This document shows positions 6,217 to 26,917 of a DNA stretch of 64,000 nt, in pieces. The stretch covers positions 2,723 through 66,722 of the forward strand of contig JACPPT010000006.1 in NCBI GenBank assembly GCA_016190815.1, written 5' to 3'. The notes under the pieces were generated by a model that saw nothing but the letters and a program-made list of their open reading frames with translations, was not told the DNA's origin and searched no databases. The translations under genes and the position numbers were made by a program. Position 1 is the first letter of the stretch. The number at the start of each line of letters is the position of its first letter. The stretch is from Chloroflexota bacterium. GTDB taxonomy: Bacteria > Chloroflexota > Dehalococcoidia > JACPPT01.

Positions 6217-6780
6217 TTAATTCCCCTGCAAATCGTCAAGGTGCGGGCTGCTTCTCCAGGCCAACCTCTTCACCCTGCCTGCTTTTATGAGGTTTTCGAG
6301 AAGTGTCTCCAGGGGAACCCCCCTCTTGGGGCATATAAGACCAGGTGCTATTTCAATCAGCGGGATAAGGACAAAGGCCCGCTCATCTATCCTGGGGTGT
6401 GGGATGACAAGCTGCGGCGTCTCCATAACCAGGTCCCCATAAAAGACGATATCTATGTCTATGATTCTGGACGCGTTGGGAAAGCTAGGCTTTCTGCCCA
6501 TGGAGAGTTCAATTTCCTTGGCAAACGCCAATAGCGAAAATGGCTCTAATTGAGTGATGGCACGGCAGCAGGCATTTAAGAACCATGGTTGCTCTTTATA
6601 ACCAACAGGTTCCGTCTCATAGGGAGAGGAGAGCTTCTCCACTTGAATTTTATCCGCAAGCCTTTCCACCGCCATCAAAAGGTTCAGTTCTCTATCCCCT
6701 AGATTAGAGCCAAGGCAGAGGTACACCGTTGCAGGTCCTGACAACTCATGCTCCTGACTTGAACCTTCGAACAATGGCAT
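6217..6780 (-). CDS. folK: 2-amino-4-hydroxy-6-hydroxymethyldihydropteridine pyrophosphokinase (HPPK)
   Basis: Carries the LGSNLGDR signature and an HPPK-length core. It has an N-terminal extension of about 15 aa relative to typical HPPK. Confidence 0.85.
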   Translation of the reverse strand: MPLFEGSSQEHELSGPATVYLCLGSNLGDRELNLLMAVERLADKIQVEKLSSPYETEPVGYKEQPWFLNACCRAITQLEPFSLLAFAKEIELSMGRKPSFPNASRIIDIDIVFYGDLVMETPQLVIPHPRIDERAFVLIPLIEIAPGLICPKRGVPLETLLENLIKAGRVKRLAWRSSPHLDDLQGN

Positions 6781-6985
6781 CAGCCATTCTGTAAACCCTT
6801 ACCATCTCCTTGACGTCATGCACCCGAACTATGTCCGCGCCTTTCGCTATGGCTATAGCAACGGTCGCAGCCGTCCCTTCCAAGCGCTCATCGACGGGGA
6901 GAGCGAGGGTTAGGCCAATCATTGTCTCCACTAAAACCTGCTTCCCCCCCATCCCAATTCAGCCACAGTCTCTTAAATTTTAACA
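6746..6985 (-). pseudogene. folP: Decayed remnant of dihydropteroate synthase (C-terminal about 70 aa only)
   Basis: The 68-aa ORF matches the DHPS C-terminus (ERLEGTAATVAIAIAKGADIVRVHDV). Upstream in the same frame there are residual DHPS-like residues (NL.., ..IGMGGK) interrupted by TGA and TAA stops. Only 172 bp remain before the next gene. Confidence 0.55.
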
Positions 6986-7124
6986 CATAGCAAAGATGGG
7001 GGGCATAACCAGGGGTAACTCCTCTTGGAAACACCCAACGTCATCATCTACCTCGCCTTGCGCTCATGGAGATAATCTGTTAGGATGTAACAGGTTAAAA
7101 ACTTCACAACCTGCCACTTAAGGA

Positions 7125-8675
7125 ATGTCAAAAGAAAATAGGCTTGAAAAGCTCAAAAAACTGAGAGAGGCTTCCAGGCTGGGAGGTGGTGAGGAGCGAA
7201 TAAAACAGCAGCACACCCGAGGGAAGCTCACTTCCAGGGAGAGAATCGCTCAGCTTCTGGACGAAGGCACTTTTGAGGAAGTGGATGCCTTCGTGACTCA
7301 TAGAGCTACCGAGTTTGGCCTCGCTGAAAGGAAATTCCCCGGGGATGCGGTGGTTACTGGCTATGGACAGATCAATGGAAGGCTGGTCTACATTTTTTCC
7401 CAAGATTTTACCGTGTTTGGGGGATCCCTTTCGGAGGTGGTCTCTGAAAAGATATGCAAGATTATGGACCTTGCAATGAAGAATGGAGCACCAGTAATAG
7501 GGATAAATGATTCGGGCGGGGCTCGAATCCAAGAGGGGGTCGTGAGCCTGGCCGGATACGGCAATATATTTTTGCGCAACACCATTGCATCCGGCGTAGT
7601 CCCTCAGATTTCCATAATTGCAGGACCCTGCGCCGGTGGCGCTGTGTACTCCCCAGCCCTCACCGACTTCATATTCATGGTTGAGGGCACTGGCCAGATG
7701 TATATAACCGGCCCCGATGTTATAAAGGCCGTCACGGGGGAAGATGTCACCCATGAGCAGCTAGGTGGTGCGCTGGCCCATGCCACAAAGAGCGGAGTAG
7801 CCCACTTTTCCATGGAAAGCGAAGCCATCTGTCTCCAGGCGGTCCGCCGCCTCCTGGCTTTCCTACCTCAGAACAACACTGAGGACCCGCCGTCGATAGA
7901 GCCAACAGACGATCCAAATCGAAGAGAGGAGCGCCTTCTAGATATAGTGCCGGAAGACCCGAACCTGCCATACAATATGAAGGAGGTTATCTCTCTTATA
8001 GTGGACAACAGCGATTTTATGGAGGTTCATCAGGGATACGCCCAGAACATAATTGTGGGATTTGCCAGACTTGACGGCCGCTCTGTAGGCATTGTAGCCC
8101 AGCAACCCACTCACCTTTCGGGCGTAATCGACATAGACTCCTCTCTTAAAGCAGCGCGTTTCGTCCGCTTCTGTGATGCCTTCAATATCCCTCTTGTAAC
8201 CTTTGCCGATGTGCCAGGGTTTATGCCAGGAACACAGCAGGAATATGGAGGGATAATAAAGCACGGTGCCAAGCTCATATATGCCTATTCGGAGGCGACG
8301 GTTCCAAAGGTCAGCGTCATCACTCGAAAGGCCTACGGCGGCGCATACGATGTTATGAGTAGCAAACACCTCCGCGGCGACATAAACTACGCTTGGCCAA
8401 CAGCGGAGATCGCTGTAATGGGACCTGAGGGTGCCGTCAATATAATCTTCAGGGACAAAATAGCCAGATCGTCAAACCCCGAGGAAACACGCAAGAAGCT
8501 CATCGAGGACTACAGGAACACCTTTGCAAATCCATACATTGCTGCCTCCAGGGGATATATCGATGATGTAATAGACCCCAGGGAGACTCGCCCCAAGCTC
8601 ATCAGAGCCCTGGCCATGCTCCAAAACAAACGAGATACCGACCCACCCAAAAAACACGGGAATATTCCGTTATGA
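7125..8675 (+). CDS. Methylmalonyl-CoA carboxyltransferase 12S subunit / propionyl-CoA carboxylase beta chain (acyl-CoA carboxyltransferase)
   Basis: 516 aa with full-length carboxyltransferase homology (both CoA-carboxylase CT domains). Confidence 0.9.
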
Positions 8676-8884
8676 AGAACATGGGAAATAAAGCACTGGC
8701 GGCTACTACAGCCGCCGTCGCTGCCTATATAGAGGAAAGCGAGGAGATAGTGGCCATCGTGGCCGCCGTAAATTCTTGCCTGGAGGAAGAGGTACTTGCC
8801 TCTCGGAAGGGTGCGCCTCCTGAGTATGCCCGGCGGCTTCCGGCACGTTTGGGTGCCATAAGGATAAGGCAACTTAACCCCTAG
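8672..8884 (+). CDS. Small (70 aa) Ala-rich protein, possibly an OadG/MmdD/PccE-like small subunit of the carboxylase complex
   Basis: It is translationally coupled (ATGA overlap) to the 12S gene and lies immediately before the 5S gene. Its composition resembles small carboxylase subunits. No direct motif proof. Confidence 0.4.
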
Positions 8885-8906
8885 CCCCAAAAGTGATGGC
8901 AACATA

Positions 8907-10847
8907 ATGGAGGCGCAGATGAAAGCCAGGAAAAGCCTGAAAGACAAACCCCTGAAAATAACCGACACCACATTTCGAGATGGACACCAGTCCATCCTGG
9001 CCACTAGAATGCGCACACCCGATATGGAGCCCATCGCCTCTGAAATGGACAAGGCCGGATTCTACTCTATGGAGGTGTGGGGTGGAGCTACCTTCGATGT
9101 GTGCACCAGGTTCCTCAATGAAGACCCTTGGGAAAGAGTTAGAACCCTGAAACGCCTAATGCCCAATACACCATTGCAAATGCTTCTCAGAGGGCAGAAC
9201 CTTACAGGATATCGCAACTACGCCGATGATGTGGTAAGGGCCTTCGTCCACTATGCCGCCGAGGTGGGGATAGACATATTCAGGGTTTTCGACTGTCTCA
9301 ATGACGAGCGAAACATGGAGGTGGCCTTCAAGGCCATAAAGGAGTGCGGCAAGCACGTTCAGGGTACTATCTGTTATTCCCTTACAGAGAGCAAGCTGGG
9401 AGGCCCTGTTTACAACCTGGATTACTTTGTAAAGAAGGCCCTAACCCTGCAGGATATGGGTGCAGATAGTATCTGCGTGAAGGACATGGCCGGTCTCATT
9501 GCCCCCTATGATGCCTACGAACTCATAGGCACTCTCAAAGAAAAGCTGAAGCTACCAGTCCAACTGCACACCCACTACACCAGTGGAATGGGCTCTATGA
9601 GTGCCCTGATGGCTGCCGAAGCGGGTGTGGATATTATCGATACCTCTCTCACCCCCCTCGCCCTGCGCACCAGCCAGCCCGCTGTGGAGCCCATTGTCGT
9701 AGCTCTACAGCGCACGCCCAGAGACACAGGCCTGAACCTGGAGCACCTTCTCAAACTTAGTCAGTACATCGAGTCCATTTGGCCTAAATACAGAGACTTA
9801 CTTGACACCACGAGGATATCAGTAATAGATACCATGGTGCTGAGCCATCAAATCCCAGGTGGCATGGCCAGCAATTTTGTTGCGCAGCTTGCGGAAGCGG
9901 GTGCCCTGGACAAGTTGCAAGAGGTGTACCGGGAACTGCCGCAGACAAGAAGAGACCTGGGGTATCCACCGCTGGTAACCCCATCAAGCCAGATAGTTGG
10001 AATTCAAGCGGTGAGCAATGTCCTCTTCGGCAGATACAAAAATATCTCTGCTCAGGTAAAAGACTACGTCTATGGGCTTTACGGTCATCCACCAGCACCC
10101 ATAGACCCGGAGGTTATCAAGGTAGCCCTCAAGGACTACCAGCGCGGTCACGAGCCCATAACCTGCAGGCCCGCCGATATTTTGGAGCCTGAGATGGAGA
10201 AGGCAAAGGAGGCCACAAAGGGCATAGCTAAAAATATGGGCGACATCCTTATCTACGCCCTCTACCCTGTTACAGGTATGCGCTTCCTTAAGTGGAAATA
10301 CGGCCTGGAGAAGCCACCTGACGATGTTAAACCCAAGACAATGGAGGATGTAAAGAGGGAGAACGAGCTTATAACCAAGGCTAAGAAGGGGCTACTGGTA
10401 GAAAAAGAAGGGAAAGAGGTAAAGGAGATACGAGTCCCAGGTACCAGAGCTCGCAGCTTCAATGTTTACGTAGGAGATGAGTACTTCAGAGTGGATGTGG
10501 AACCCATCCAGCCATCGGGGGCGTCAGGCACCCCTGCGACAGCTCCAGCTTCTGTGCAGACAGTGCTGCCAAGGCCTTCCCTTGTTGATGGGAAGATTGT
10601 ATCCTCTTCAGAGGTTCCACCCCAAGATAAAGGCACACCTGTCATAGCTCCCATGCCTGGCATCGTCCTTCGCTACGAGGCACAGGTAGGTCAAAAGGTC
10701 AAGGCTGGAGACAAGTTCGTTATCTTCGAAGCGATGAAAATGGAGACCGTGATCTCAGCGCCAATAGACGGCATCGTAAAATCCATAAACTTTGCCCCCG
10801 GAACAAAGGTAAATAAAAACGAGGTCCTCGCTGTTATTGTGAGCTAA
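8907..10847 (+). CDS. Transcarboxylase 5S subunit / oxaloacetate decarboxylase alpha-type carboxyltransferase with a fused C-terminal biotinyl (AMKM) domain
   Basis: HMGL-like TIM barrel (TDTTFRDGHQS) with a C-terminal biotin attachment motif EAMKMET. Confidence 0.9.
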   Translation: MEAQMKARKSLKDKPLKITDTTFRDGHQSILATRMRTPDMEPIASEMDKAGFYSMEVWGGATFDVCTRFLNEDPWERVRTLKRLMPNTPLQMLLRGQNLTGYRNYADDVVRAFVHYAAEVGIDIFRVFDCLNDERNMEVAFKAIKECGKHVQGTICYSLTESKLGGPVYNLDYFVKKALTLQDMGADSICVKDMAGLIAPYDAYELIGTLKEKLKLPVQLHTHYTSGMGSMSALMAAEAGVDIIDTSLTPLALRTSQPAVEPIVVALQRTPRDTGLNLEHLLKLSQYIESIWPKYRDLLDTTRISVIDTMVLSHQIPGGMASNFVAQLAEAGALDKLQEVYRELPQTRRDLGYPPLVTPSSQIVGIQAVSNVLFGRYKNISAQVKDYVYGLYGHPPAPIDPEVIKVALKDYQRGHEPITCRPADILEPEMEKAKEATKGIAKNMGDILIYALYPVTGMRFLKWKYGLEKPPDDVKPKTMEDVKRENELITKAKKGLLVEKEGKEVKEIRVPGTRARSFNVYVGDEYFRVDVEPIQPSGASGTPATAPASVQTVLPRPSLVDGKIVSSSEVPPQDKGTPVIAPMPGIVLRYEAQVGQKVKAGDKFVIFEAMKMETVISAPIDGIVKSINFAPGTKVNKNEVLAVIVS

Positions 10848-10922
10848 TGTTCTATGAAAAATCCGGGGGAAATTAAAAAGAACAAGGTAAGACTTAAATA
10901 AAGATTTAAGGAGGTATTTCGG

Positions 10923-12943
<2,021 letters not shown>

Positions 12944-12948
12944 ATAAC

Positions 12949-13791
12949 ATGAGGGATATAAAGGCACCGGATATTGCAGAGACAGTGACTCGCCTCTGCA
13001 AAGAGGCCAACTACTATCTGCCTAAAGACGTGCTGGATGCCCTGCGACAGGCCAGAGAGAAGGAGGAGGCGCCAGCGGCAAAGCAGGTTCTTGATACCGT
13101 TATGAAGAACGCAGAGATAGCTTCCAAAGAGCAGATGCCCCTCTGCCAGGATACAGGCACCACCGTGATTTTCCTGGAGATAGGTCAAAATGTTCACATA
13201 GTGGGGGACCTTCACAAGGCCCTGGAGGAAGGGGTCAGGCAGGGTTACACCCAGGGCCTGCTGCGAGCCTCTATGGTGCGGCAACCTCTCTCCAAGAGAG
13301 TGAACACCAAGGATAATACCCCTCCAGTCGTTCACACAGAAATAGTGCCGGGCGATAAACTGAAGATCGTGGTGTTGCCCAAAGGAGGCGGCTGCGAAAA
13401 CATGAGCAGAATGGCCATTCTCATGCCCGCCGAAGGCCGCAAGGGGGTTATTGATTTCGTGGTTAAGGCTGTGGAGGACGCTGGAGGCAACCCCTGCCCG
13501 CCGGTCATTCTGGGCGTGGGGATAGGTGGAACGTCAGAGCACGTTATGTATCTGGCCAAAAAGGCTATCCTGCGCAAGGTGGGAGAGCCAAACCCTGACC
13601 CAGAGGTGGCCGAACTGGAAAGGGAGCTTCTGGAGCGCGTCAACGCAACGGGCATAGGGCCTCAGGCGTGGGGCGGGAGAGCCACTGCTCTGGCTGTGCA
13701 CGTGGAGACCTATCCCACACATATAACCGCTCTACCAGTCGCGGTCAACTTCCAGTGCCACAGCGCCAGGCAAAGAGAAGCTGTTCTTTGA
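12949..13791 (+). CDS. fumA: Fumarate hydratase class I (Fe-S type), alpha subunit
   Basis: Homology to the L(+)-tartrate dehydratase/fumarase alpha subunit. The start MRDIKAPDIAET was chosen at the ATG after the mdh stop. Confidence 0.85.
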   Translation: MRDIKAPDIAETVTRLCKEANYYLPKDVLDALRQAREKEEAPAAKQVLDTVMKNAEIASKEQMPLCQDTGTTVIFLEIGQNVHIVGDLHKALEEGVRQGYTQGLLRASMVRQPLSKRVNTKDNTPPVVHTEIVPGDKLKIVVLPKGGGCENMSRMAILMPAEGRKGVIDFVVKAVEDAGGNPCPPVILGVGIGGTSEHVMYLAKKAILRKVGEPNPDPEVAELERELLERVNATGIGPQAWGGRATALAVHVETYPTHITALPVAVNFQCHSARQREAVL

Positions 13792-13806
13792 GGAGGAAAG
13801 AAGAGA

Positions 13807-14366
13807 TGGATATTAGTCCTCCGCTAACTGAGGAAGTCCTTGAAAAGCTGAAAGCTGGCGACCAGATAACCATCACAGGAGTCATTTACACGGCCCGGGA
13901 TGCAGCCCATAAGCGCCTCTTCGAGGCTCTGGAAAAAGGTGAAAAGCTTCCCATCGACATCCGGGGGCAAATCCTTTACTACGTAGGCCCTACTCCTCCA
14001 AAGCCGGGACAGGCCATTGGCTCAGCAGGCCCAACCACTTCCGTCCGAATGGACGTTTACACACCCCGTCTTCTGGCCGCAGGACTCAAGGGAACCATTG
14101 GCAAGGGGGCAAGGAGGCCTCCTGTCCGAGAGGCTATGGTCAAGTATAAGGCTGTGTACCTGGGAGCCATCGGCGGGGCCGGCGCCCTGCTCTCCAAACA
14201 TGTTAAGAGAGCAGAGGTAGTAGCCTATGAGGAACTGGGCACCGAGGCTATAAGGCGTCTGGAGGTCGAAAAATTCCCAGTGATCGTGGTGAACGACATC
14301 TACGGCAAGGATGTTTACGAAGAGGGGAAGAAGAAGTATCGGCAGGAGACACCGCTGAAGGCTTAG
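13807..14366 (+). CDS. fumB: Fumarate hydratase class I, beta subunit
   Basis: Homology to the beta subunit. The start MDISPPLTEEV follows the RBS gaggaggaaag. Confidence 0.85.
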
Positions 14367-14387
14367 GCAAGACTGCGTTGAAAGAAG

Positions 14388-14436
14388 AGAAGGCACAAGC
14401 CCCTTGGTCAGCCCAGGGGGCTTGTGCCTTCTTACA
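14388..14436 (+). terminator. Stem-loop downstream of fumB (14-bp perfect stem) with a weak U-tract
   Basis: aaggcacaagcccc/ggggcttgtgcctt followed by tcttac. Confidence 0.45.
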
Positions 14437-14457
14437 GAGGATGGAGGATAATCCGTA

Positions 14458-15342
14458 ATGGGTGAGCTGGCTGCGCTGGGCTCGGCCCTCGTCTGGGCAG
14501 CTAACGGCGTTCTGGTCAAGTCCATGACAAGAGTGTTCAGCGCTCTGCCATTCAATGCTCTGAGGTGTCTTTTTACCGCCCTGCTCTTCTGGGCAATACT
14601 TCTGGCGACAGGTAGAACCGCCACACTCCTGGAGACTCCACTCTGGACAGTTATTGGACTCCTGTTCTCAGCCACCATAGGCATAGGGATTGGAGATACC
14701 GTTTACCTGGTAGGCCTGACAAGTGTAGAGGCATCCAGGGCATACCCCATATCCCTTAGCTCTTATCCCGTCATCACTATGGTTATAGCAGCCCTCTTTC
14801 TGGGCGAGTCCATCACCTTGCCAACGATATTGGGAGCCTTTGCTGTTATTCTTGGTGTTTATCTCGTGGCTTCCTCCCAGCAGAGAGGCAAGGGGCTAGA
14901 TAAGGCCCCAAAAGGACAATTTAGAGGGCTTTTTCTCATATTTGTAGCAGCTTTCTGCTGGGCTGTCTCCATTTCCATTCTCAAGGTTGTATTGGGAAAG
15001 ACCGATGTCCTGATAGTAAACGCCATACGTCTTTCCTGGGTTGTTATTTTGCTTCTGGGACTGTCGGCAAGGGAAATGAAGAAGATGGGCACGTGGCATG
15101 CAAAGAAGTTGGACCTGGGTCTAGGAGCCTTAACCGGCGTTCTGGACTACGTTGTTGGCGGGCTGCTCTTCCTGGTAGCCATTCAAATGGCCGGCGCCGC
15201 CAAAACCTCAATCCTCTTCAGCACGTCGCCTTTATTCCTGCTCCCTATCTCGGCCATTTTTCTTAAAGAAAGAATTGGCCCAAAACACATCCTGGGAGTG
15301 GTTTCAAGCATAGCTGGGATAGCGCTGCTTATGTATAAGTAA
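14458..15342 (+). CDS. DMT-superfamily (EamA-like) transporter
   Basis: 294 aa, about 10 TM segments, with the duplicated EamA pattern. Confidence 0.75.
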   Translation: MGELAALGSALVWAANGVLVKSMTRVFSALPFNALRCLFTALLFWAILLATGRTATLLETPLWTVIGLLFSATIGIGIGDTVYLVGLTSVEASRAYPISLSSYPVITMVIAALFLGESITLPTILGAFAVILGVYLVASSQQRGKGLDKAPKGQFRGLFLIFVAAFCWAVSISILKVVLGKTDVLIVNAIRLSWVVILLLGLSAREMKKMGTWHAKKLDLGLGALTGVLDYVVGGLLFLVAIQMAGAAKTSILFSTSPLFLLPISAIFLKERIGPKHILGVVSSIAGIALLMYK

Positions 15343-16221
15343 CTATGTGGCCACTTTTGCTATGACGCCCCGAGCAGAGACGATGTGGCGCTGGAGCCCC
15401 AAGGCCTTCGGCTCAAACCCCATGGCCAAACCGATGAGCTGCGGCAGGTGCAGAACAGGAAGGTCTATCTTTGCTCCCTTTTGCGCCGAGGCTTTGGGCT
15501 GATAGCCATCCAGATTCAAATGGCAGAGGGGACACGGAGTTACCATGCAGTCTGCGCCCTTGCTCTTTGCCTCTATGGTATGGTCTCCCACCATGGCCAC
15601 CGAGTTCCTTTCGTTGATGGTCAGGATGGGGAAGCCACAACATTTGGTCTTTCCCGTGTAATCCACAGACTCGCCGCCGAGGATGGACACAACCTGCTCT
15701 ATATAGGTCATTCTTGCGGGGTGCTCGTCATAGCCCAGGACACTGCTCGGGCGCAGGATGTAGCATCCATAAAAAGGGGCCACCTTTAATCCCTTAAGGG
15801 GTCTAGACACCAGCGTCTTGAGCTTCTCCAAGCCCATATCCTCCACCAGAATCCATAGAAGGTGTTTTATGAGGGTTCCGCCTTTGTATTCAAACCCCTC
15901 CCCTGCAAGGTTGCTGTTCACCTTTGCCAGGTAGCTCTTGTCAGACTGTAGCTTATGATTTGTCTGGGTCATTACACCCTGACAGGTGCTGCAAATGGTC
16001 ATGATGGGCAGTCCTAAACGCTCAGCCATAGCGAAAGTCCTGGCGTTGAGAGTATCAGCCAGCTCTGGATTCTTCTCGTTAAGGACACCCGCCCCTGTGC
16101 AGGCAGCCTCTTTCAGTTCCACCAGTTCCAGCCCCAGTTTCTGCGCCACAGCCGTAGTGGAGGTGTAAAGCTCCGGGCAGCCGCCTTTGGAAACACAGCC
16201 TGGATAGAAAGCGTATTTCAC
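15343..16221 (-). CDS. Succinate dehydrogenase/fumarate reductase HdrB-like subunit with two CCG domains (type-E SdhE/MfrE-like)
   Basis: Cys-rich CCG motifs (CxxCH-like GCYILRP..CCGFP..CPLCHLN). Immediately downstream of sdhB. Confidence 0.8.
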   Translation of the reverse strand: MKYAFYPGCVSKGGCPELYTSTTAVAQKLGLELVELKEAACTGAGVLNEKNPELADTLNARTFAMAERLGLPIMTICSTCQGVMTQTNHKLQSDKSYLAKVNSNLAGEGFEYKGGTLIKHLLWILVEDMGLEKLKTLVSRPLKGLKVAPFYGCYILRPSSVLGYDEHPARMTYIEQVVSILGGESVDYTGKTKCCGFPILTINERNSVAMVGDHTIEAKSKGADCMVTPCPLCHLNLDGYQPKASAQKGAKIDLPVLHLPQLIGLAMGFEPKALGLQRHIVSARGVIAKVAT

Positions 16222-17168
16222 TTCCTCACCTCCAGCTTCTCGAATATCCTCTTTACACTGTCCGCACCTGGCCTGGGCCTATGTATTATGGGTGGCACCT
16301 TCCCTTTTACCAGAGCTCTAAAGCCCACGGGGATATACCCTATCAAGGCTTTGATGTTGAAGAGGCCAGCGGATTCTATAGGCACACGCAATTCGTCCAG
16401 CCAGCCGCTATGCTTTACGGAACGTGCTATGCTCTCGCTGTGACGAGAGCCGATATTATTGGTGAACCCAACCTCCATTGCCTTGGCGCGAAGGGCCAGA
16501 ATTCTCTCCATGGGTGCTACATTCTTGGGGCATTGCTGAACGCACTCGAAACAGCGAGTGCAATCCCATATGCCCGATCTCTTACTCAGCTCCCTGAGTC
16601 TCTCCTCGCTTACGCCATCTCTTGGATCAGCAACGAACCTGTAGGCTTTGGCAAGAGCCGCTGGGGCCAGGAAGCTCTTATCCACTGTAAGAACGGTGCA
16701 ATCGGATACACAGCACCCACACATTATGCAGTTCATTACACCTGCGAGCTCCAGCATAGCCGAGTTGGGCACAACATATTCCCTTTGCGGCGGTGGGCCC
16801 TCTGGGATGAGCCATGGTGTTACAGCTTGCACCTTACTCCAGAAAGGCTTCATCTCCACAACCAGGTCCTTGATAACAGGCATATTGCCCATAGGCTCGA
16901 CGACTATCTCCCCAGTCTTGGATGCAAAGTTCTGGATTCTGCTCTTACACGCCAGATGGGCATGGCCATTTATATGCATGGCGCAGGAACCGCAAATGGC
17001 GCTGCGACACGAGCAGCGCAAAGCGAGAGAGCCATCTACCTCATCCCGAACTTGAAGGAGAGCATCCAGGACAGTGAAATAATCTGGGACATCCAGAGTG
17101 TACTGATCATAATAGGGTGGCTTTCCGGCTTCGGGGTCGAACCTTCTTACCTTGAAGCTTACTTGCAT
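16218..17168 (-). CDS. sdhB: Succinate dehydrogenase/fumarate reductase iron-sulfur subunit
   Basis: 2Fe-2S and 4Fe-4S cysteine clusters (CSCRSAICGSC, CIMCGCC, CTRCFEC). Confidence 0.9.
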   Translation of the reverse strand: MQVSFKVRRFDPEAGKPPYYDQYTLDVPDYFTVLDALLQVRDEVDGSLALRCSCRSAICGSCAMHINGHAHLACKSRIQNFASKTGEIVVEPMGNMPVIKDLVVEMKPFWSKVQAVTPWLIPEGPPPQREYVVPNSAMLELAGVMNCIMCGCCVSDCTVLTVDKSFLAPAALAKAYRFVADPRDGVSEERLRELSKRSGIWDCTRCFECVQQCPKNVAPMERILALRAKAMEVGFTNNIGSRHSESIARSVKHSGWLDELRVPIESAGLFNIKALIGYIPVGFRALVKGKVPPIIHRPRPGADSVKRIFEKLEVRK

Positions 17169-18841
17169 CAGTAAGTCCTCCTCTCGGGTTGCCAGCGGGT
17201 GATGGTCACCGGCCTGTATTCCAGCCTCGGGCCGTCAGCGGTGCAAAAGGCAAGGGTGTGTTTCAGCCAGTTGTTATCGTCCCGTTGTGGGAAATCCATC
17301 CGGGAGTGAGCACCTCGGCTCTCCTGCCTGGCCAGAGCGCCCGTAGATATAACCTCGGCCAGGTCCAACATAAAGCCTAGCTCTATTGCAGCCAAAAGAT
17401 TTGTGTTGAATACTCTTCCCTTGTGCTGAATATGGACTCCCTTGTAGCGCTCCTTCAGTTCTTTGATTTTATCCACAGCTTTGGCGAGGTTTTCCCTTGT
17501 TCGAAAGATACCCACATTGGCTTTCATTGTGGTTCCCATCTCAAGTCTCAGCTTAGCCGCGGTCTCCCCCCGGTCTTCCCTGGCAAAAAGGGATTTTATG
17601 CGCTTCTCTTCCTCGGCCACAGCGCTCTCAGAGACTGCTGTTGCCGGAACATCGTTCACATAGTCGGCTGCGCCTGCCCCTGCTCTTCTGCCAAAGACCA
17701 CCGTCTCCAGAAGTGAGTTGCCGCCCAGTCTATTGGCTCCGTGAACACTTACACATGCACACTCGCCTGCCGCAAAAAGCCCGGGCAGAGGCGCCTTGCC
17801 TTGTGCGTCAGTCTTGACCCCACCCATCTGGTAGTGCATGCCCGGCCTGACTGGTATCGGCTCTTTTAGCGCATCTATGTCAGCGTAGTCCAAGGCCAGT
17901 TCACGAATCTGCCCTAGCTTTTGCATTATCAATTCTTTCCCCAGATGCCTTAGATCCAGGAGAATACACTCATCAACACCACGACCTTCATCTATCTCCG
18001 TCTGCTCACCCCTGGAGACGACGTCTCGCGCAGCCAGCTCCATCCTCTGGGGAGCATAGCGTCCCATGAACCTCTCCCCCTTGGCATTCACGAGGTAGCC
18101 ACCCTCTCCCCTGGCACCCTCCGTTATCAGAACGCCGCTGGTCTTAAGAGTTGTGGGATGAAACTGCACGAACTCCATATCCATGAGAGGCGAGCCTGCC
18201 CTGTAGGCCAGACTCATGCCGTCTCCGGTGCATATCAGCCCGTTGGTAGTGGGGTGATACACCCTCCCCAGCCCTCCTGTGGCCATGATAACAGCCTTTG
18301 ACCTGATGGCTTCGAGCTTGCCTGTGAGCATATCCATGGCAACGACCCCACAGCAAACTCCGTTTTCTACAATTAGAGAAAGGCAGAACCACTCCTCGTA
18401 GACCTGCACCCCCATCTTCAAAAGCTGCTCATACATCACGTGAAGAATGACCTGGCCCGTTATATCGGAAACAAAGCAGGTCCGTGCGAATCCAGCACCT
18501 CCGAAGGGCCTCTGAGCCAGCTTCCCGTCCTCCCTCCTGTTAAAGGCAACCCCCATATTCTCAAGTTCGATGATGTCAGCAGGTGCTTCTCTGCACAGGG
18601 TTTCTACGGCGTCCTGGTCTCCCAGGTAGTCGCTGCCCTTAACGGTGTCAAAGGAATGATTCTCCCAGGAGTCATTCTCCCCCAGAGCAGCGTTTATGCC
18701 TCCCTGCGCGGCAGCGGAGTGGCTTCTTACCGGGTGGACCTTGGATATGATGGCTACATCAACATTTTTCTTCTTTGCTTCGTAGGCCGCCCGCATACCT
18801 GCCAAGCCTGCGCCTATAATCAGGACATCATGCTGCAACAT
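17168..18841 (-). CDS. sdhA: Succinate dehydrogenase/fumarate reductase flavoprotein subunit
   Basis: FAD-binding N-terminus DVLIIGAGLAG, RSHSAAAQGG His-FAD region, and full length. No signal peptide. Confidence 0.9.
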   Translation of the reverse strand: MLQHDVLIIGAGLAGMRAAYEAKKKNVDVAIISKVHPVRSHSAAAQGGINAALGENDSWENHSFDTVKGSDYLGDQDAVETLCREAPADIIELENMGVAFNRREDGKLAQRPFGGAGFARTCFVSDITGQVILHVMYEQLLKMGVQVYEEWFCLSLIVENGVCCGVVAMDMLTGKLEAIRSKAVIMATGGLGRVYHPTTNGLICTGDGMSLAYRAGSPLMDMEFVQFHPTTLKTSGVLITEGARGEGGYLVNAKGERFMGRYAPQRMELAARDVVSRGEQTEIDEGRGVDECILLDLRHLGKELIMQKLGQIRELALDYADIDALKEPIPVRPGMHYQMGGVKTDAQGKAPLPGLFAAGECACVSVHGANRLGGNSLLETVVFGRRAGAGAADYVNDVPATAVSESAVAEEEKRIKSLFAREDRGETAAKLRLEMGTTMKANVGIFRTRENLAKAVDKIKELKERYKGVHIQHKGRVFNTNLLAAIELGFMLDLAEVISTGALARQESRGAHSRMDFPQRDDNNWLKHTLAFCTADGPRLEYRPVTITRWQPERRTY

Positions 18842-18954
18842 TCTGCACCATCCTTAGCCCTGGATTTGCATTTCCCTATGAGGCAATATTAACCACGAAA
18901 CACCATCGAGGAAGTGTATCACATATGAACACAATCTACAAGCTTTTTTATGAC

Positions 18955-19052
18955 ATCGTTTACAAACCCCGTTCGCCCTGAGCTTTGTCGAAGGGCCGTT
19001 CATGGTTCGACAAGCTCACCACGAACGACTAGAACAGTTGTTAAACGCTCTC
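18955..19052. mobile_element. MITE-like element, family A, copy 1 (about 98 bp, 58-bp identical core, internal extended hairpin)
   Basis: About 93% identical to 37195-37290. The core ccgttcgccctgagctttgtcgaagggccgttcatggttcgacaagctcaccacgaacg contains a nested inverted repeat. Near-direct flank repeats are ttttatgac and ttttgtgac. Confidence 0.6.
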
Positions 19053-19065
19053 TTTTGTGACGGTT

Positions 19066-19623
19066 TCATTTGCGAGGGTCTCTTTCCGTCAATACCATCA
19101 AGAGGCCGGCTATGCTCTTGGAATCTTGAATCTCCCCTTGCCGAATCATCTCAGATATCCTGCTCAAAGGGACGCGAACCACCTCTATCTTTTCATCGAT
19201 ATCCGCTTCAAGAGAGCTTGGTATTAACTGGGTCGCCAAATATAGGTGCATAAGCTCAGTGCTATACCCTGGACTTATATAGAAGGCGCCGATTCTCTCT
19301 ATTTTTTGCGCAGTATGCCCTGTCTCCTCTTGAAGCTCCCTTATTACAGTTTCCTCAGGTTTTTCTCCAGGCTCAACACCCCCTGCGGGCACTTCCAGAA
19401 GGACACGCTCTGCCGGTTTACGGTACTGTCTCACTAGAAGAACGTTCCCCTGGGAGTCCACCGGGATTATAGAGACCGACTCGCTGTGCTCAACTATCTC
19501 TCGCTGGGTAGTTCGGCCGTCAGGCAGCTCAACAGTGTCTATTCTAAGTCCTACGACGTGTCCCTTGTAGATGCGTCGGATCCTAAGTGTCGGCTCTTTA
19601 GACAATTCTTTTTCAGACGCCAA
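19066..19623 (-). CDS. NUDIX hydrolase (ADP-ribose pyrophosphatase-like)
   Basis: Nudix box GGVEPGEKPEETVIRELQEETG. Confidence 0.8.
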   Translation of the reverse strand: MASEKELSKEPTLRIRRIYKGHVVGLRIDTVELPDGRTTQREIVEHSESVSIIPVDSQGNVLLVRQYRKPAERVLLEVPAGGVEPGEKPEETVIRELQEETGHTAQKIERIGAFYISPGYSTELMHLYLATQLIPSSLEADIDEKIEVVRVPLSRISEMIRQGEIQDSKSIAGLLMVLTERDPRK

Positions 19624-21113: not shown

Positions 21114-22592
21114 TCAGGGAACGGGCAGTACACTCACCGCAATGTTGGCAAGGCGCATAAGGGGTCCAGGTAAAATGCCCAGGAGGAAAACTCCAGCAAC
21201 GCTTATCAAAAGGGCGCTGCGAAGGGCCATGGTGGAGGGCACAGCCTCCTCAGAGGCAGCCGGCCTCAAATACATCACTCTCACCACATTAATATAGTAA
21301 TAGGCAGAGATGACGCTGTTGACGACTCCGATTATGGCCAGCCAGACCAGGCCATTCTGAACTGCGGCGTTAAATATGTATATTTTTGCGACAAAGCCCG
21401 CCGTTGGCGGTATGCCCACCAGGGAAATCAGGCAGAAGGCCAGGGCAAAGGCCAGGGCTGGAGTCCGCCGGGCCATTCCTGCGTAGTCAGCTATTAGGTC
21501 GCTCCCTGTCTTGTTGGATATGGCAATGACAGCTATAAAGGCTCCCAGATTTGTCATTGCGTAGGCACCAAGATAGAAAAGAACACCGCTCGGCCCAAGG
21601 AATTCCCCCCCTATACCCAGGGCCGACACAGATGCCAGGCCAGCCATGAGATAGCCTGCATGGGCAATCGTGCTGTAGCCCAGCATCCTCTTGATGTTTG
21701 ACTGAGCTATGGCCACGATGTTTCCTATAGTCATAGAAACGGCGCTGAGCACTGCAAAGAGCATACCCCAGTCCAGGTCCATACCCCCGAAGGCTATGTA
21801 GAAGACTCTGAGAATAACGGCAAAGCCCGCTGCCTTGCTCGCCACCGAGAGATAGGCAGTGATGGGCGTGGGCGCTCCCTCATAGACATCAGGCACCCAC
21901 ATCTGGAATGGCACAGTGGAAATCTTGAACCCGAAGCCTGCAACTATCAGTGTTAGCCCCAACAGCAATGCCGGCTCGTCCAGAAGACGCTTCAAGGGCA
22001 CAAGCCCTGCGGCAATGTCTCTGAGACTTGTGCTCCCTGTCAGACCGAATACCAGAGCCATCCCATACAGCATTACGGCAGAACTTATGGCGCTCAGCAG
22101 AAGGAACTTGAGGCTGGCCTCGCTGGACCTGGCGTCTCTCAAGAAACAGACCAGGGCACAAAGGGAAAGGGCGTTTAGCTCAAGAGCTATGTAAATGGTG
22201 ATCAGCTCTCCACTGGCTGCCATGAGCATCATTCCAACTGCAGCAAGGAGCACCAGCGCATAATATTCTCCCTGCATCCTCGGGAATTTTGACACGTAAT
22301 CCTGAGAGGCCAAAATCACAAGGGCAGCCACAACTATAAATAAGAGCTTGAAGAAAAGGCTGAACTCATCCACTATTAGGAAACCATTGAAGGCCGTGGT
22401 TCGCACTCCCCAGAGAGCCAGAGTCAAGGCTGTGGGTACGAATAACCCCAGCAGGCTTACAGTGGCAAGCCATCCCTTTCTTTGCACGAATAAATCCAGA
22501 ATAATGACAGCAAAAGCCAGGATAGAAAGGCTTATCTCCGGGGAAAGATAGTACAGGTCTACCGTTCTCATACCTCTATATAACCCCCGCAA
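21114..22592 (-). CDS. nuoN: NADH-quinone oxidoreductase subunit N
   Basis: Polytopic ND2-family antiporter-like subunit. The start is uncertain: TTG at 22592 or ATG at 22571. Confidence 0.85.
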   Translation of the reverse strand: MRGLYRGMRTVDLYYLSPEISLSILAFAVIILDLFVQRKGWLATVSLLGLFVPTALTLALWGVRTTAFNGFLIVDEFSLFFKLLFIVVAALVILASQDYVSKFPRMQGEYYALVLLAAVGMMLMAASGELITIYIALELNALSLCALVCFLRDARSSEASLKFLLLSAISSAVMLYGMALVFGLTGSTSLRDIAAGLVPLKRLLDEPALLLGLTLIVAGFGFKISTVPFQMWVPDVYEGAPTPITAYLSVASKAAGFAVILRVFYIAFGGMDLDWGMLFAVLSAVSMTIGNIVAIAQSNIKRMLGYSTIAHAGYLMAGLASVSALGIGGEFLGPSGVLFYLGAYAMTNLGAFIAVIAISNKTGSDLIADYAGMARRTPALAFALAFCLISLVGIPPTAGFVAKIYIFNAAVQNGLVWLAIIGVVNSVISAYYYINVVRVMYLRPAASEEAVPSTMALRSALLISVAGVFLLGILPGPLMRLANIAVSVLPVP

Positions 22593-23004: not shown

Positions 23005-23007
23005 GCC

Positions 23008-24459: not shown

Positions 24460-24479
24460 AGTTCCTCCTTAACCATATA

Positions 24480-26399: not shown

Positions 26400-26402
26400 T
26401 TC

Positions 26403-26597
26403 TTAGACCTTTCTCAGAATCTCTTCCGCCACGTGCTCCCTCCCCTTCGGTACATAAACTATAAATGGCACGCTCTCACCCCAGGAACGGATGTCCCCCT
26501 CTGGCAAAATGCGAGCGGGTAGCCCCTCTCCCTCGAGAAGGTCCTTCCACATCTCCGCCAGCATTAAATTAGGAACCCGCTTGAACTCCACCCACAT
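26403..26597 (-). CDS. Small DUF2007-like protein inserted between nuoK and nuoL
   Basis: 64 aa with the pattern VEFKRVPNLMLAEMWKDLLEGEGLPARI typical of DUF2007. There is a 3-nt gap to nuoL. Confidence 0.4.
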   Translation of the reverse strand: MWVEFKRVPNLMLAEMWKDLLEGEGLPARILPEGDIRSWGESVPFIVYVPKGREHVAEEILRKV

Positions 26598-26601
26598 GCC
26601 G

Positions 26602-26910: not shown

Positions 26911-26917
26911 CTCCTCC

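What the first reader, a model, noticed from the sequence alone, without database searches (positions are those of the whole stretch)
7125..18841. Compact Wood-Werkman (methylmalonyl-CoA/succinate) pathway island with a biotin-domain-fused 5S transcarboxylase and an anchor-less SdhAB-HdrB-like enzyme
One + strand array encodes carboxyltransferase 12S, a small subunit, 5S with a fused biotinyl domain, an ICDH-family dehydrogenase, mdh and fumAB. It faces a convergent sdhA-sdhB-CCG-domain subunit set.

No ATP-dependent biotin carboxylase and no membrane OadB-type pump are present. The carboxyltransferases therefore most plausibly form a methylmalonyl-CoA:pyruvate transcarboxylase. That enzyme links oxaloacetate, malate, fumarate, succinate and propionate, as in propionate fermenters or syntrophic propionate oxidisers (mmc-type clusters).

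The succinate dehydrogenase has an HdrB-like subunit but no hydrophobic anchor gene and no signal peptide, so it is a type-E-like soluble or peripheral enzyme. The ICDH-family member in this context could instead be a decarboxylating D-malate/tartrate dehydrogenase.
Basis: partly seen in the sequence, partly recalled or inferred. Interest (0 to 1): 0.6.

Follow-up and report, generated by a model that had tools for sequence, protein, structure and literature searches.

The report
Dehalococcoidia TCA operon with transcarboxylase-like module
This is the conserved central-carbon (TCA-type) operon of an uncultured Dehalococcoidia bacterium, headed by a three-gene biotin carboxyl-transfer module that most likely moves CO2 between oxaloacetate and propionyl-CoA without ATP; it is an ordinary, already annotated kind of gene cluster, not a self-contained propionate pathway.

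Summary
It missed one gene, an EamA transporter lying between fumB and the sdh genes.

The array is not a compact Wood-Werkman island. It is the local version of an operon conserved across Dehalococcoidia: 12S, a small ORF, 5S fused to a biotin carrier, (aconitase), ICDH, MDH, FumA, (Sdh), FumB. The flanking genes are also the same. The 64-kb window holds no methylmalonyl-CoA mutase, epimerase, CoA-transferase, biotin carboxylase or OadB pump.

The ICDH-family gene has the isocitrate and NADP residues of E. coli ICDH. It is not a D-malate or tartrate dehydrogenase.

The Sdh is a textbook type E complex II. SdhB carries a CxxCxxCxxxCP third cluster and SdhE has two CCG domains.

The transcarboxylase reading is favoured but unproven (about 0.58):
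- No biotin carboxylase lies within 10 kb in 87 related loci.
- Homologous trios sit beside mutase and MeaB in Desulfobacterota and Nitrospirota.
- The window's 12S carries Asp at the PccB-D422 position. Close Asp-type homologues lie in 12S–5S–carrier–mutase–epimerase clusters.
- In one case a biotin carboxylase occupies the slot that 5S holds elsewhere.

The main rival is a pyruvate plus propionyl-CoA carboxylase that uses an unlinked biotin carboxylase.

Verdict: a new member of a known kind, of modest interest.

The parts
7125..8675 (+). 12S-type acyl-CoA carboxyltransferase (PccB/MmdA/12S family). It carries Asp at the position equivalent to S. coelicolor PccB D422, in the motif [11 protein letters not shown].
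   Evidence: PF01039 E=6e-207. TIGR01117 848 bits, cutoff 999. PDB hits: 1vrg 730 bits, 3n6r 721, transcarboxylase 12S 1on3 620. Motif mapping against PDB chains. Named 'acyl-CoA carboxylase subunit beta' by NCBI.
8672..8884 (+). Small 70-aa subunit with no transmembrane segment. Its N-terminal 'AA..AAV.AYIEE' motif is duplicated. It is the counterpart of a small ORF conserved between 12S and 5S in related loci. It is possibly an OadG-C-terminus-like or 'epsilon'-like adaptor.
   Evidence: The ORF overlaps the 12S stop codon. A conserved small ORF occupies the same slot in most related loci. 5 of 28 members weakly match PF04277 OAD_gamma, best E=0.023; the window copy has no hit.
8907..10847 (+). 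5S-type pyruvate/oxaloacetate carboxyltransferase fused to a C-terminal 1.3S/MmdC-like biotin carrier. Motifs present: FRDGHQS, VKDMAG, HTHYTSG and the biotinylation motif EAMKME.
   Evidence: PF00682 + PF02436 + PF00364. NF006761 749 bits (domain-level model). All equivalog models fall below cutoff: oadA 679/757, PycB 589/734, 5S 519/827. PDB hits: 5ks8_C 500 bits, 1rqb 440, 2nx9 433.
10923..12008 (+). NADP-dependent isocitrate dehydrogenase, short 361-aa type.
   Evidence: PF00180. Best NCBIfam models are ICDH. 43% identical to E. coli Icd. [12 protein letters not shown] aligns with the Ser113/Asn115/Arg119 motif, and APKY aligns with Lys344/Tyr345. 60-70% identical to the ICDH that follows aconitase in related clusters. 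The enzyme encoded by the D. mccartyi ICDH gene (DET0450 and its orthologues) has been characterised biochemically (PMC4720418).
12011..12943 (+). Malate dehydrogenase of the LDH-like family.
   Evidence: TIGR01763 478 bits, above its 352 cutoff.
12949..13791 (+). Class I (Fe-S) fumarate hydratase, alpha subunit.
   Evidence: PF05681 E=1e-113. NF004885 401 bits, above its 276 cutoff.
13806..14366 (+). Class I fumarate hydratase, beta subunit.
   Evidence: PF05683. NF005310 269 bits, above its 238 cutoff.
14458..15342 (+). EamA/DMT-family membrane transporter. It was not found in this position in any related locus.
   Evidence: PF00892 E=4e-43, two repeats. The tblastn search found it only in the window.
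15343..16221 (-). SdhE: an HdrB-like subunit with two CCG domains, as in type E complex II.
   Evidence: PF02754 x2. NF042965 MFR SdhE 219 bits and TIGR03288 HdrB 213 bits, both below cutoff. 62-68% identical SdhA/B/E sets occur in L028-L030 and L033.
16218..17168 (-). SdhB iron-sulfur subunit with a C-terminal extension of about 80 aa. Its third cluster motif is CTRCFECVQQCP, with an extra Cys.
   Evidence: PF13085 + PF13183. PRK12577 288 bits. The alignment to E. coli SdhB shows CHSIMNCVSVCP at the same place.
17168..18841 (-). SdhA flavoprotein. It has the RSHS..AQGG histidine used for covalent FAD and no Tat or signal peptide.
   Evidence: TIGR01812 813 bits, above its 567 cutoff. The N-terminus MLQHDVLIIGAGLAG begins directly with the FAD fold.

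Best explanation
The region is the lineage-specific form of the conserved Dehalococcoidia central-carbon operon.

Its first three genes encode one soluble biotin enzyme:
- a 12S hexamer-type acyl-CoA carboxyltransferase;
- a small adaptor without a transmembrane segment;
- a 5S pyruvate/oxaloacetate carboxyltransferase that carries its own 1.3S-like biotin carrier.

The swinging carboxybiotin most likely shuttles CO2 between oxaloacetate/pyruvate at the 5S site and propionyl-CoA/(S)-methylmalonyl-CoA at the 12S site. No ATP would be used. This is methylmalonyl-CoA:pyruvate transcarboxylase, EC 2.1.3.1.

The co-transcribed MDH and class I fumarase, and the convergent type E SdhABE, connect oxaloacetate to succinate. 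The NADP-ICDH serves the 2-oxoglutarate branch.

Shown here: gene content, domain architecture, intact catalytic and biotinylation motifs, synteny, and the absence of a biotin carboxylase or pump subunit in cis.

Inferred: formation of the complex, methylmalonyl-CoA specificity, the direction of flux, and the presence elsewhere in the genome of mutase, epimerase and succinyl-CoA-forming enzymes.
For: 1. The three genes are translationally coupled or closely spaced: a 4-nt overlap and a 22-nt gap.
2. The 12S–small ORF–5S-biotin trio is kept together in about 45 loci from Dehalococcoidia, Desulfobacterota, Nitrospirota and Syntrophaceae. No biotin carboxylase lies within 10 kb in any of 87 loci. 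The AccC seed does detect a biotin carboxylase where one exists, in L092.
3. In L014, L042, L062, L070 and L071 the 12S-5S pair lies beside methylmalonyl-CoA mutase and/or MeaB. In L027 the 5S-biotin gene lies beside mutase and MeaB but no 12S was found. In L045 (Syntrophaceae) the pair lies with fumarase, SdhACDB and MDH. This mirrors the mmc cluster of Pelotomaculum and the MCE-MCM-MDH-5S neighbourhood of S. fumaroxidans (PMC8892533, PMC3570798).
4. The window's 12S has Asp at the PccB-D422/MePCC-D407 position. 19 of its 120 closest homologues share it.
5. Asp-type homologues that are 73-76% identical lie in these contexts:
   - L090: 12S–5S–carrier ... MCM–MCE
   - L091: 12S–5S–carrier–MCM–MCE ... 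MeaB
   - L093: 12S–5S–carrier
   - L095: 12S ... 5S–carrier–ferredoxin oxidoreductase–aconitase
   - L092: 12S–biotin carboxylase–BCCP–MCM–MCE
   So the carboxyl-donor partner is encoded next to 12S. In the window that partner is 5S.
6. The C-terminal 130 aa of the 5S protein matches complete MmdC/1.3S-type carriers.
7. NCBI already names several close 12S homologues 'methylmalonyl-CoA carboxyltransferase'.
Against: 1. No mutase, epimerase, succinyl-CoA synthetase or CoA-transferase lies in the 64-kb window. The rest of the genome could not be searched.
2. The window's 12S belongs to clade A, which is tied to the TCA-type operon. The mutase-linked trios of other phyla belong to clade B. Its Asp arose independently within an Ile/Val-type clade.
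3. The same trio occurs in Dehalogenimonas (L039) and Dehalococcoidaceae (L036). These belong to the terrestrial Dehalococcoidia reported to lack methylmalonyl-CoA mutase (PMC7506110).
4. One Dehalococcoidales subclade keeps 5S-biotin in the same slot without an adjacent 12S. A 70%-identical 5S-biotin protein therefore functions with some other partner.
5. The best PDB and NCBIfam matches of the 5S protein are pyruvate carboxylase subunit B.
6. The D422-equivalent residue is not a clean specificity marker. It is Leu in P. shermanii 12S and Val in R. pomeroyi PCC.
Confidence: 0.58

Rival explanations
1. Split ATP-dependent carboxylases. The 5S-biotin protein is PycB and works with an unlinked PycA/AccC biotin carboxylase as the anaplerotic pyruvate carboxylase that heads the TCA operon. 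The 12S uses the same carboxybiotin carrier, or another one, as a propionyl-CoA carboxylase beta subunit. Both reactions feed C4 units into the cycle.
For: - NCBI names the proteins 'pyruvate carboxylase subunit B' and 'acyl-CoA carboxylase subunit beta'.
- NF006761 scores 749 bits. The best PDB match is the two-subunit pyruvate carboxylase beta chain 5ks8_C.
- The operon context is aconitase/ICDH/MDH/fumarase, where an anaplerotic enzyme is expected. Pyruvate carboxylase is taken as the sole oxaloacetate source in Dehalococcoides models (PMC2930330).
- Some Dehalococcoidales have 5S-biotin without 12S.
- The trio is present in lineages reported to lack mutase (PMC7506110).
- L092 shows that an Asp-type 12S can pair with a biotin carboxylase.
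Against: - No biotin carboxylase lies within 10 kb in 87 loci, or in the 64-kb window.
- Where a close 12S homologue does use a biotin carboxylase, that gene is adjacent and replaces 5S.
- The equivalog models for PycB are below cutoff, 589 against 734.
- Tight three-gene coupling of two different carboxyltransferases around a single carrier is the transcarboxylase architecture.
Confidence: 0.28
2. The 12S acts on acetyl-CoA/malonyl-CoA rather than propionyl-CoA. The module would then be a malonyl-CoA:pyruvate transcarboxylase or the carboxyltransferase of acetyl-CoA carboxylase, supplying malonyl-CoA for lipid synthesis.
For: - Most clade A homologues carry Ile or Val at the D422 position, as in acetyl-CoA-accepting S. 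coelicolor AccB (my own knowledge).
- The trio occurs in small-genome organohalide respirers that are reported to lack mutase.
Against: - The window's own 12S has Asp. In PccB, Asp excludes acetyl-CoA (my own knowledge of Diacovich et al. 2004, not re-read here).
- Asp-type homologues are linked to mutase and epimerase.
- Ile, Val or Leu also occur in genuine propionyl-CoA enzymes.
Confidence: 0.08
3. A biotin-dependent decarboxylase: a Na+-pumping or soluble oxaloacetate or methylmalonyl-CoA decarboxylase.
For: - The 5S protein scores 679 bits on TIGR01108 oadA and the 12S scores 848 bits on mmdA.
- The small ORF family weakly resembles OadG.
Against: - No OadB/MmdB-type membrane subunit is encoded in the window or in the Pfam-annotated relatives L001-L007.
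- The small ORF has no transmembrane helix.
- Both equivalog scores are below cutoff.
Confidence: 0.03

Closest known systems
Methylmalonyl-CoA:pyruvate transcarboxylase of Propionibacterium freudenreichii (12S/5S/1.3S; PDB 1on3, 1rqb)
   Same: It has a 12S-type carboxyltransferase (620 bits to 1on3), a 5S-type carboxyltransferase (440 bits to 1rqb), a 1.3S-like biotin carrier with the AMKM motif, and no biotin carboxylase in the gene cluster.
   Different: The carrier is fused to the C-terminus of 5S instead of being a separate 1.3S. An extra small ORF lies between 12S and 5S. The 12S is closer to PccB-type proteins (1vrg, 3n6r) than to 1on3. The genes are embedded in a TCA-type operon. Activity is untested.
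mmc (methylmalonyl-CoA pathway) clusters of syntrophic propionate oxidisers (Pelotomaculum thermopropionicum mmcA-M; S. fumaroxidans Sfum_0455-0461 + Sfum_1223)
   Same: It has a 12S ('MmdA-like'), a small 'epsilon' gene, a biotin carrier, MDH, a 5S and split fumarase subunits in one neighbourhood (PMC8892533, PMC3570798). 59-69% identical 5S-biotin genes lie beside mutase and MeaB in Desulfobacterota and Nitrospirota.
   Different: The window lacks mutase, epimerase, succinyl-CoA synthetase, PFOR and the regulator. It contains an ICDH. Related clusters contain aconitase, so the scaffold is a TCA operon, not a dedicated propionate operon.
Two-subunit pyruvate carboxylase (PycA/PycB, e.g. Methylobacillus flagellatus 5ks8)
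   Same: The beta subunit has the same carboxyltransferase + carrier architecture and gives the best structural-database match, 500 bits over residues 17-642.
   Different: No PycA gene is linked. A 12S acyl-CoA carboxyltransferase and a small ORF are co-transcribed instead.
Type E succinate:quinone oxidoreductase / methylmenaquinol:fumarate reductase (Acidianus/Sulfolobus SdhABEF, Campylobacter MfrABE)
   Same: It has SdhA with the covalent-FAD histidine, SdhB with the CxxCxxCxxxCP third cluster and a C-terminal extension, and SdhE with two CCG domains replacing the hydrophobic SdhC/D.
   Different: No SdhF gene is present. SdhA has no Tat signal, so it is cytoplasmic, unlike Mfr. All equivalog scores are below cutoff. 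Many relatives carry SdhACDB in the operon instead.
Dehalococcoides/Dehalococcoidales incomplete-TCA gene cluster (aconitase–ICDH–MDH–fumarase; DmIDH of D. mccartyi)
   Same: Gene order and flanks are the same (HPPK upstream; NUDIX, GNAT and NAD kinase downstream). ICDH is 60-70% identical across the class. The enzyme encoded by the D. mccartyi ICDH gene (DET0450 and its orthologues) is a proven NADP-ICDH (PMC4720418).
   Different: The window has lost the two aconitase genes from the cluster. It has gained an EamA transporter and a convergent type E Sdh.

Membership tests
Methylmalonyl-CoA:pyruvate transcarboxylase (EC 2.1.3.1) | 12S-type acyl-CoA carboxyltransferase subunit | tested here: met
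   PF01039 full length. 620 bits to 1on3_A.
Methylmalonyl-CoA:pyruvate transcarboxylase (EC 2.1.3.1) | 5S-type pyruvate/oxaloacetate carboxyltransferase with intact metal and carbamyl-Lys motifs | tested here: met
   PF00682 + PF02436. 440 bits to 1rqb. The motifs DGHQS, KDMAG and HTHYTSG are read directly from the sequence. The 5S equivalog NF008984 scores 519, below its 827 cutoff.
Methylmalonyl-CoA:pyruvate transcarboxylase (EC 2.1.3.1) | Biotin carrier (1.3S-like) with the AMKM biotinylation site | tested here: met
   PF00364 at residues 579-644. EAMKME is present. Residues 515-644 match MmdC and PRK05641 carriers over their whole length. Here the carrier is fused to 5S.
Methylmalonyl-CoA:pyruvate transcarboxylase (EC 2.1.3.1) | No biotin carboxylase component (ATP-independent) | tested here: inconclusive
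   None in the 64-kb window or within 10 kb in 87 related loci. A positive control for the search exists in L092. The rest of the genome could not be searched.
Methylmalonyl-CoA:pyruvate transcarboxylase (EC 2.1.3.1) | Methylmalonyl-CoA/propionyl-CoA specificity and a methylmalonyl-CoA mutase/epimerase in the organism | not testable with these tools
   The evidence is indirect only. The window's 12S has Asp at the D422 position, and Asp-type homologues lie beside MCM and MCE. No MCM or MCE is in the window.
Two-subunit pyruvate carboxylase (PycA/PycB) | PycB: carboxyltransferase + BCCP beta subunit | tested here: inconclusive
   The domain-level model NF006761 scores 749, above its 402 cutoff. 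The equivalogs NF010644 (589/734) and NF010645 (499/1182) are below cutoff.
Two-subunit pyruvate carboxylase (PycA/PycB) | PycA biotin carboxylase subunit | tested here: inconclusive
   Absent from the window and from all flanks examined. Genome-wide status is unknown.
Na+-translocating oxaloacetate / methylmalonyl-CoA decarboxylase | Integral membrane beta subunit (OadB/MmdB, PF03977) and a membrane-anchored gamma/delta subunit | tested here: not met
   No such Pfam hit among the window ORFs or the called genes of L001-L007. The small ORF lacks a transmembrane helix, and only relatives give weak OAD_gamma hits.
mmc-type methylmalonyl-CoA pathway cluster | Mutase, epimerase, succinyl-CoA synthetase/CoA-transferase and PFOR clustered with the transcarboxylase genes | tested here: not met
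   None of these is in the window.
Type E succinate:quinone oxidoreductase | SdhE with duplicated CCG (HdrB-like) domain instead of hydrophobic SdhC/D | tested here: met
   PF02754 in two stretches. NF042965 219 bits and TIGR03288 213 bits. No Sdh_cyt gene is adjacent.
Type E succinate:quinone oxidoreductase | SdhB third cluster motif with an extra Cys (CxxCxxCxxxCP, giving a 4Fe-4S cluster in place of 3Fe-4S) | tested here: met
   CTRCFECVQQCP aligns to E. coli CHSIMNCVSVCP. Reading this as a 4Fe-4S cluster rests on my own knowledge of the published type E definition.
Type E succinate:quinone oxidoreductase | Small SdhF subunit | tested here: not met
   No candidate ORF flanks the sdh genes. 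Three-subunit type E enzymes such as MfrABE are known, so this does not exclude membership.
NADP-dependent isocitrate dehydrogenase | Isocitrate gamma-carboxylate residues (Ser113, Asn115) and NADP determinants (Lys344, Tyr345) in E. coli numbering | tested here: met
   The BLASTP alignment to E. coli Icd shows [12 protein letters not shown] against GGGIRSLNVALR, and SAPKYTG against TAPKYAG. NCBIfam ICDH equivalogs give the best hits but are below cutoff, 406 against 510.

The most novel reading that the evidence does not exclude
The single biotin carrier fused to 5S may serve as a hub for two carboxyltransferases at the head of the Dehalococcoidia TCA operon.

Together with one unlinked biotin carboxylase, the complex would be at once a pyruvate carboxylase, an acyl-CoA carboxylase and a transcarboxylase. 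In mutase-less, genome-streamlined Dehalococcoidales it would make malonyl-CoA from acetyl-CoA at the expense of oxaloacetate or ATP.

The Ile/Val versus Asp switch at the D422 position would re-tune it between acetyl-CoA and propionyl-CoA in different lineages. A soluble, OadG-derived small subunit would hold 12S and 5S together.
Probability: 0.15. Interest if true: 0.6.

Novelty: new member of a known kind. Interest (0 to 1): 0.3.

Why it matters
If the module is a transcarboxylase, this widespread group of uncultured subsurface Chloroflexota can couple oxaloacetate decarboxylation to propionyl-CoA carboxylation without spending ATP. That affects how their propionate and odd-chain fatty-acid turnover and their energy budgets are modelled.

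Automatic annotation currently calls the genes 'pyruvate carboxylase subunit B' and 'acyl-CoA carboxylase beta', which implies ATP-dependent anaplerosis. Resolving the question would correct many MAG-based metabolic reconstructions.

It would not reveal a new type of enzyme or pathway.

Tried and rejected
1. **D422-equivalent residue as a specificity marker.** PDB alignments show Leu in the genuine 12S (1on3), Val in R. pomeroyi PCC, Ile in T. maritima and Asp in M. extorquens PCC. The residue alone is not diagnostic. It became useful only in combination with the genomic contexts of Asp-type homologues.

2. **PDB similarity ranking to separate transcarboxylase from carboxylase 12S.** A mutase-linked clade B 12S (L071) gives the same ranking as the window protein: 1vrg first, 1on3 about 618 bits. 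This is uninformative.

3. **NCBIfam equivalogs for the 5S protein.** OadA, PycB, 5S and full-length pyruvate carboxylase models are all below cutoff. They do not discriminate.

4. **Small ORF.** The window copy has no Pfam hit. Only relatives give weak OAD_gamma hits. A profile search of the PDB found nothing.

5. **Promoter and terminator scan of 6500-19500.** The number of sites was not above the shuffled expectation.

6. **Literature on the Dehalococcoides pyruvate carboxylase genes.** The metabolic-model paper names the reaction but not its subunits. Its held supplements had no matches. Marco-Urrea 2011 and Tang 2009 are not held. No paper combines 'transcarboxylase' with 'Dehalococcoidia'.

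7. **2-oxoglutarate carboxylase (CfiAB-like) plus oxalosuccinate reductase.** I considered this because ICDH directly follows 5S. I rejected it as the main reading. In most relatives two aconitase genes intervene, no biotin carboxylase is linked, and the ICDH has the normal decarboxylating-ICDH residues.

8. **Exact-sequence look-up of the 5S protein's contig.** It returned nothing, so the other contigs of this MAG could not be reached.

Full report
**What is there.**
- On the + strand:
  - a 516-aa 12S-type carboxyltransferase (7125-8675);
  - a 70-aa ORF that overlaps its stop codon (8672-8884);
  - a 646-aa HMGL-like/PYC_OADA carboxyltransferase with a C-terminal biotinyl domain (8907-10847);
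  - an Iso_dh-family protein (10923-12008);
  - malate dehydrogenase (12011-12943);
  - the two subunits of class I fumarase (12949-13791 and 13806-14366).
- On the − strand: SdhA (17168-18841), SdhB (16218-17168) and a protein with two CCG domains (15343-16221).
- The 5S and 12S proteins are identical to NCBI records from a 'Chloroflexi bacterium' MAG contig of 67,304 bp. Those records are annotated 'pyruvate carboxylase subunit B' and 'acyl-CoA carboxylase subunit beta'.

**What is not there.** Pfam scans of essentially all ORFs of 150 aa or more in the window found only housekeeping genes and an 11-subunit-type nuo operon.
- The housekeeping genes include ProRS-like, HPPK, NUDIX, GNAT, NAD kinase, SelB, HerA/NurA, SecDF, PriA, FtsZ and NrdJ-like.
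- The nuo operon has NuoB, D, H, I, J, L, M and N, and no NuoEFG.
- No biotin carboxylase, OadB-type pump subunit, methylmalonyl-CoA mutase, MeaB, epimerase, succinyl-CoA synthetase or CoA-transferase is present.
- A tblastn search with E. coli AccC, ScpA and ArgK found nothing in the window. The same AccC seed finds a biotin carboxylase at 50% identity in L092, so the search does work.

**The cluster is a conserved Dehalococcoidia TCA-type operon.**
- Neighbourhoods of 62-71%-identical 5S-biotin proteins were taken from public assemblies and from 80 GTDB species genomes. Across the class they show the same order: 12S – small ORF – 5S-biotin – aconitase large and small subunits – ICDH – MDH – FumA – (SdhA-C-D-B) – FumB.
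- The flanks match those of the window: HPPK upstream, and NUDIX, GNAT and NAD kinase downstream.
- The window therefore differs from the common form in three ways. The two aconitase genes are missing. The operon-internal SdhACDB is replaced by a convergent SdhA-B-E set. An EamA gene has been added.
- The same variant occurs in L028-L030 and L033. It has no aconitase genes, and its SdhABE proteins are 62-68% identical to the window's. These loci include two complete MAG chromosomes.
- In several relatives a CitE-like lyase gene precedes 12S, and in L003 CODH/ACS genes follow.

**ICDH.**
- The protein is 43% identical to E. coli Icd.
- It conserves the isocitrate-specific GGG(F/I)RS(V/L)NVALR motif (Ser113, Asn115, Arg119) and the NADP determinants APKY (Lys344, Tyr345).
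- The ICDH at the same position in related clusters is 60-70% identical and follows aconitase.
- The enzyme encoded by the D. mccartyi ICDH gene (DET0450 and its orthologues) was shown biochemically to be an NADP-ICDH (PMC4720418).
- The suggestion of a D-malate or tartrate dehydrogenase is therefore not supported. The tartrate dehydrogenase models score far lower, 207 and 184 bits.

**Sdh.**
- SdhA has the RSHS..AQGG histidine and no signal peptide.
- SdhB has a C-terminal extension of about 80 aa. Its third cluster motif is CTRCFECVQQCP where E. coli has CHSIMNCVSVCP.
- The third subunit has two CCG domains and scores best on the MFR SdhE and HdrB models.
- These are the published hallmarks of type E complex II, by my own knowledge of the Lemos et al. 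classification. No SdhF is present.
- This is a known class, not a new 'anchor-less' enzyme.

**What the first three genes do.**

*Architecture.* Two different carboxyltransferases are tightly co-transcribed around a single biotin carrier. This is the transcarboxylase architecture. The catalytic and biotinylation motifs are intact.

*The small ORF.* It belongs to a family conserved between 12S and 5S in both 12S clades. The consensus is AAI.AAV.AY..EE ... W...GR.E.MR.R.LWQ.R. It has no transmembrane segment. 5 of 28 members weakly match OAD_gamma. It occupies the slot of the 'epsilon' gene mmcI in the Pelotomaculum mmc cluster (PMC8892533).

*Two clades of 12S.*
- Clade B has the P. shermanii-like SYLAMC motif. 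It lies beside methylmalonyl-CoA mutase and/or MeaB in Desulfobacterota, Nitrospirota and Thermodesulfovibrio (L014, L042, L062, L070, L071). In Dehalococcoidia it lies in 12S–5S–MDH–Fum–SdhACDB clusters.
- Clade A includes the window's 12S and is tied to the aconitase/ICDH-containing operon.
- PDB similarity does not separate the two clades.

*The D422-equivalent residue.*
- The window's 12S carries Asp. This position corresponds to PccB-D422 and M. extorquens PCC D407, as seen in the alignment.
- 19 of the 120 closest homologues share the Asp.
- I examined six Asp-type homologues:

| Locus | Context |
|---|---|
| L090 | 12S–5S–carrier ... MCM–MCE |
| L091 | 12S–5S–carrier–MCM–MCE ... MeaB |
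| L093 | 12S–5S–carrier |
| L095 | 12S ... 5S–carrier–ferredoxin oxidoreductase–aconitase |
| L092 | 12S–biotin carboxylase–BCCP–MCM–MCE–MCM |
| L094 | 12S followed by a 2-oxoacid oxidoreductase |

- Asp-type 12S proteins are thus associated with the methylmalonyl-CoA pathway.
- The carboxyl-donor partner, 5S or a biotin carboxylase, is encoded next to 12S. In the window that partner is 5S-biotin.
- Together with the complete lack of linked biotin carboxylases in 87 other loci, this favours a methylmalonyl-CoA:pyruvate transcarboxylase.

**Why it is not settled.**
- The window's Asp arose independently inside an Ile/Val-type clade.
- The residue is not a strict specificity marker. It is Leu in the genuine 12S and Val in R. 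pomeroyi PCC.
- The same trio occurs in Dehalogenimonas and Dehalococcoidaceae (L039, L036). Terrestrial Dehalococcoidia are reported to lack methylmalonyl-CoA mutase (PMC7506110), and pyruvate carboxylase is taken as their only route to oxaloacetate (PMC2930330).
- One derived Dehalococcoidales subclade keeps 5S-biotin in the same slot without 12S.
- A 5S-biotin protein of this family can therefore work with another partner, presumably an unlinked biotin carboxylase.
- I could not search the rest of this genome for a biotin carboxylase, mutase or epimerase. That search is the decisive missing test.
- My probabilities are:

| Reading | Probability |
|---|---|
| Transcarboxylase | about 0.58 |
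| Split pyruvate/propionyl-CoA carboxylase with an unlinked biotin carboxylase | about 0.28 |
| Acetyl-/malonyl-CoA-directed function | about 0.08 |
| Decarboxylase | about 0.03 |

**Comparison and novelty.**
- The closest known systems are:
  - the P. freudenreichii transcarboxylase;
  - the mmc clusters of syntrophic propionate oxidisers (PMC8892533, PMC3570798);
  - two-subunit pyruvate carboxylase;
  - type E complex II;
  - the incomplete-TCA cluster of Dehalococcoides.
- Fusion of a biotin carrier to a 5S-type domain is common. It occurs in OadA, in PycB and in more than 50 loci examined here. Split versions exist in close relatives.
- NCBI already labels several near homologues 'methylmalonyl-CoA carboxyltransferase'.
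- The finding is real but is a new member of known kinds. Its value lies in correcting the default 'pyruvate carboxylase' annotation, and in the open question of whether one carrier serves two carboxyltransferases in this class.

Noticed in passing
window 21114-31329 (- strand): A complex I operon lies directly downstream of the NUDIX-GNAT-NAD kinase genes. It contains NuoN, M, L, J, I, H, D and B but no NuoE/F/G genes. This is the 11-subunit type, whose electron donor is unclear.
   Followed up: partly
L001/L002 16578-20523; L007 16581-20508; L015-L022, L026, L031: In many relatives the SdhA-SdhC-SdhD-SdhB genes are inserted between fumA and fumB. The window lineage (with L028-L030 and L033) instead has adjacent fumA-fumB and a separate type E SdhABE set. 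This indicates a lineage-specific replacement of complex II type.
   Followed up: partly
L003/L004 7228-8139; L007 6860-7768; also L008, L009, L013, L026, L035, L072: A CitE-like (citrate lyase beta / citryl- or malyl-CoA lyase family) gene immediately precedes 12S in several relatives. TIGR01588 scores 269 bits, below cutoff. In L003 CODH/ACS genes are adjacent. The gene is absent from the window, and its role next to the carboxyl-transfer module is unexplained.
   Followed up: partly
L029 11989-13251; L033 12058-13260; L028, L030, L054: In the relatives with the closest synteny, the slot after 5S-biotin holds a divergent 400-420-aa Iso_dh-family protein. It is only 35-39% identical to the window ICDH and has an extra N-terminal region. 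Its best NCBIfam ICDH score is 253 bits, far below cutoff. Its substrate is unknown.
   Followed up: partly
window 8672-8884; L039 9827-9985: The small ORF of the window and that of Dehalogenimonas sp. both carry the 'AA..AA...Y.EE' motif twice. Both lack the C-terminal W...GR.E.MRMR..WQ.R motif found in most family members.
   Followed up: partly
L077 8177-11924 (Sporobacter MAG); also L076, L080, L082, L087: Firmicutes relatives have a 587-aa divergent carboxyltransferase (22% identical to 12S), a 509-aa 5S and a separate 138-aa biotin carrier. An acyl-CoA dehydrogenase-like ORF (by sequence resemblance only; not scanned against any family library) and further unannotated ORFs follow. This is another transcarboxylase-like trio without a biotin carboxylase, in a different pathway context.
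   Followed up: no
window 62145-62756 (-): A 203-aa ORF with collagen triple-helix repeats (PF01391, E=5e-10).
   Followed up: no
window 37348-39237 (+) and 41255-44727 (+): A SelB selenocysteine elongation factor is present, so the organism uses selenoproteins. A NurA/HerA nuclease-helicase pair lies nearby.
   Followed up: no
L092 10001-17952: One Asp-type 12S homologue, 73% identical to the window's, sits in a 12S–biotin carboxylase–BCCP–MCM–TrmO–MCE–MCM cluster. Nearly identical 12S proteins are thus used in both ATP-dependent propionyl-CoA carboxylase and transcarboxylase-type gene sets.
   Followed up: partly
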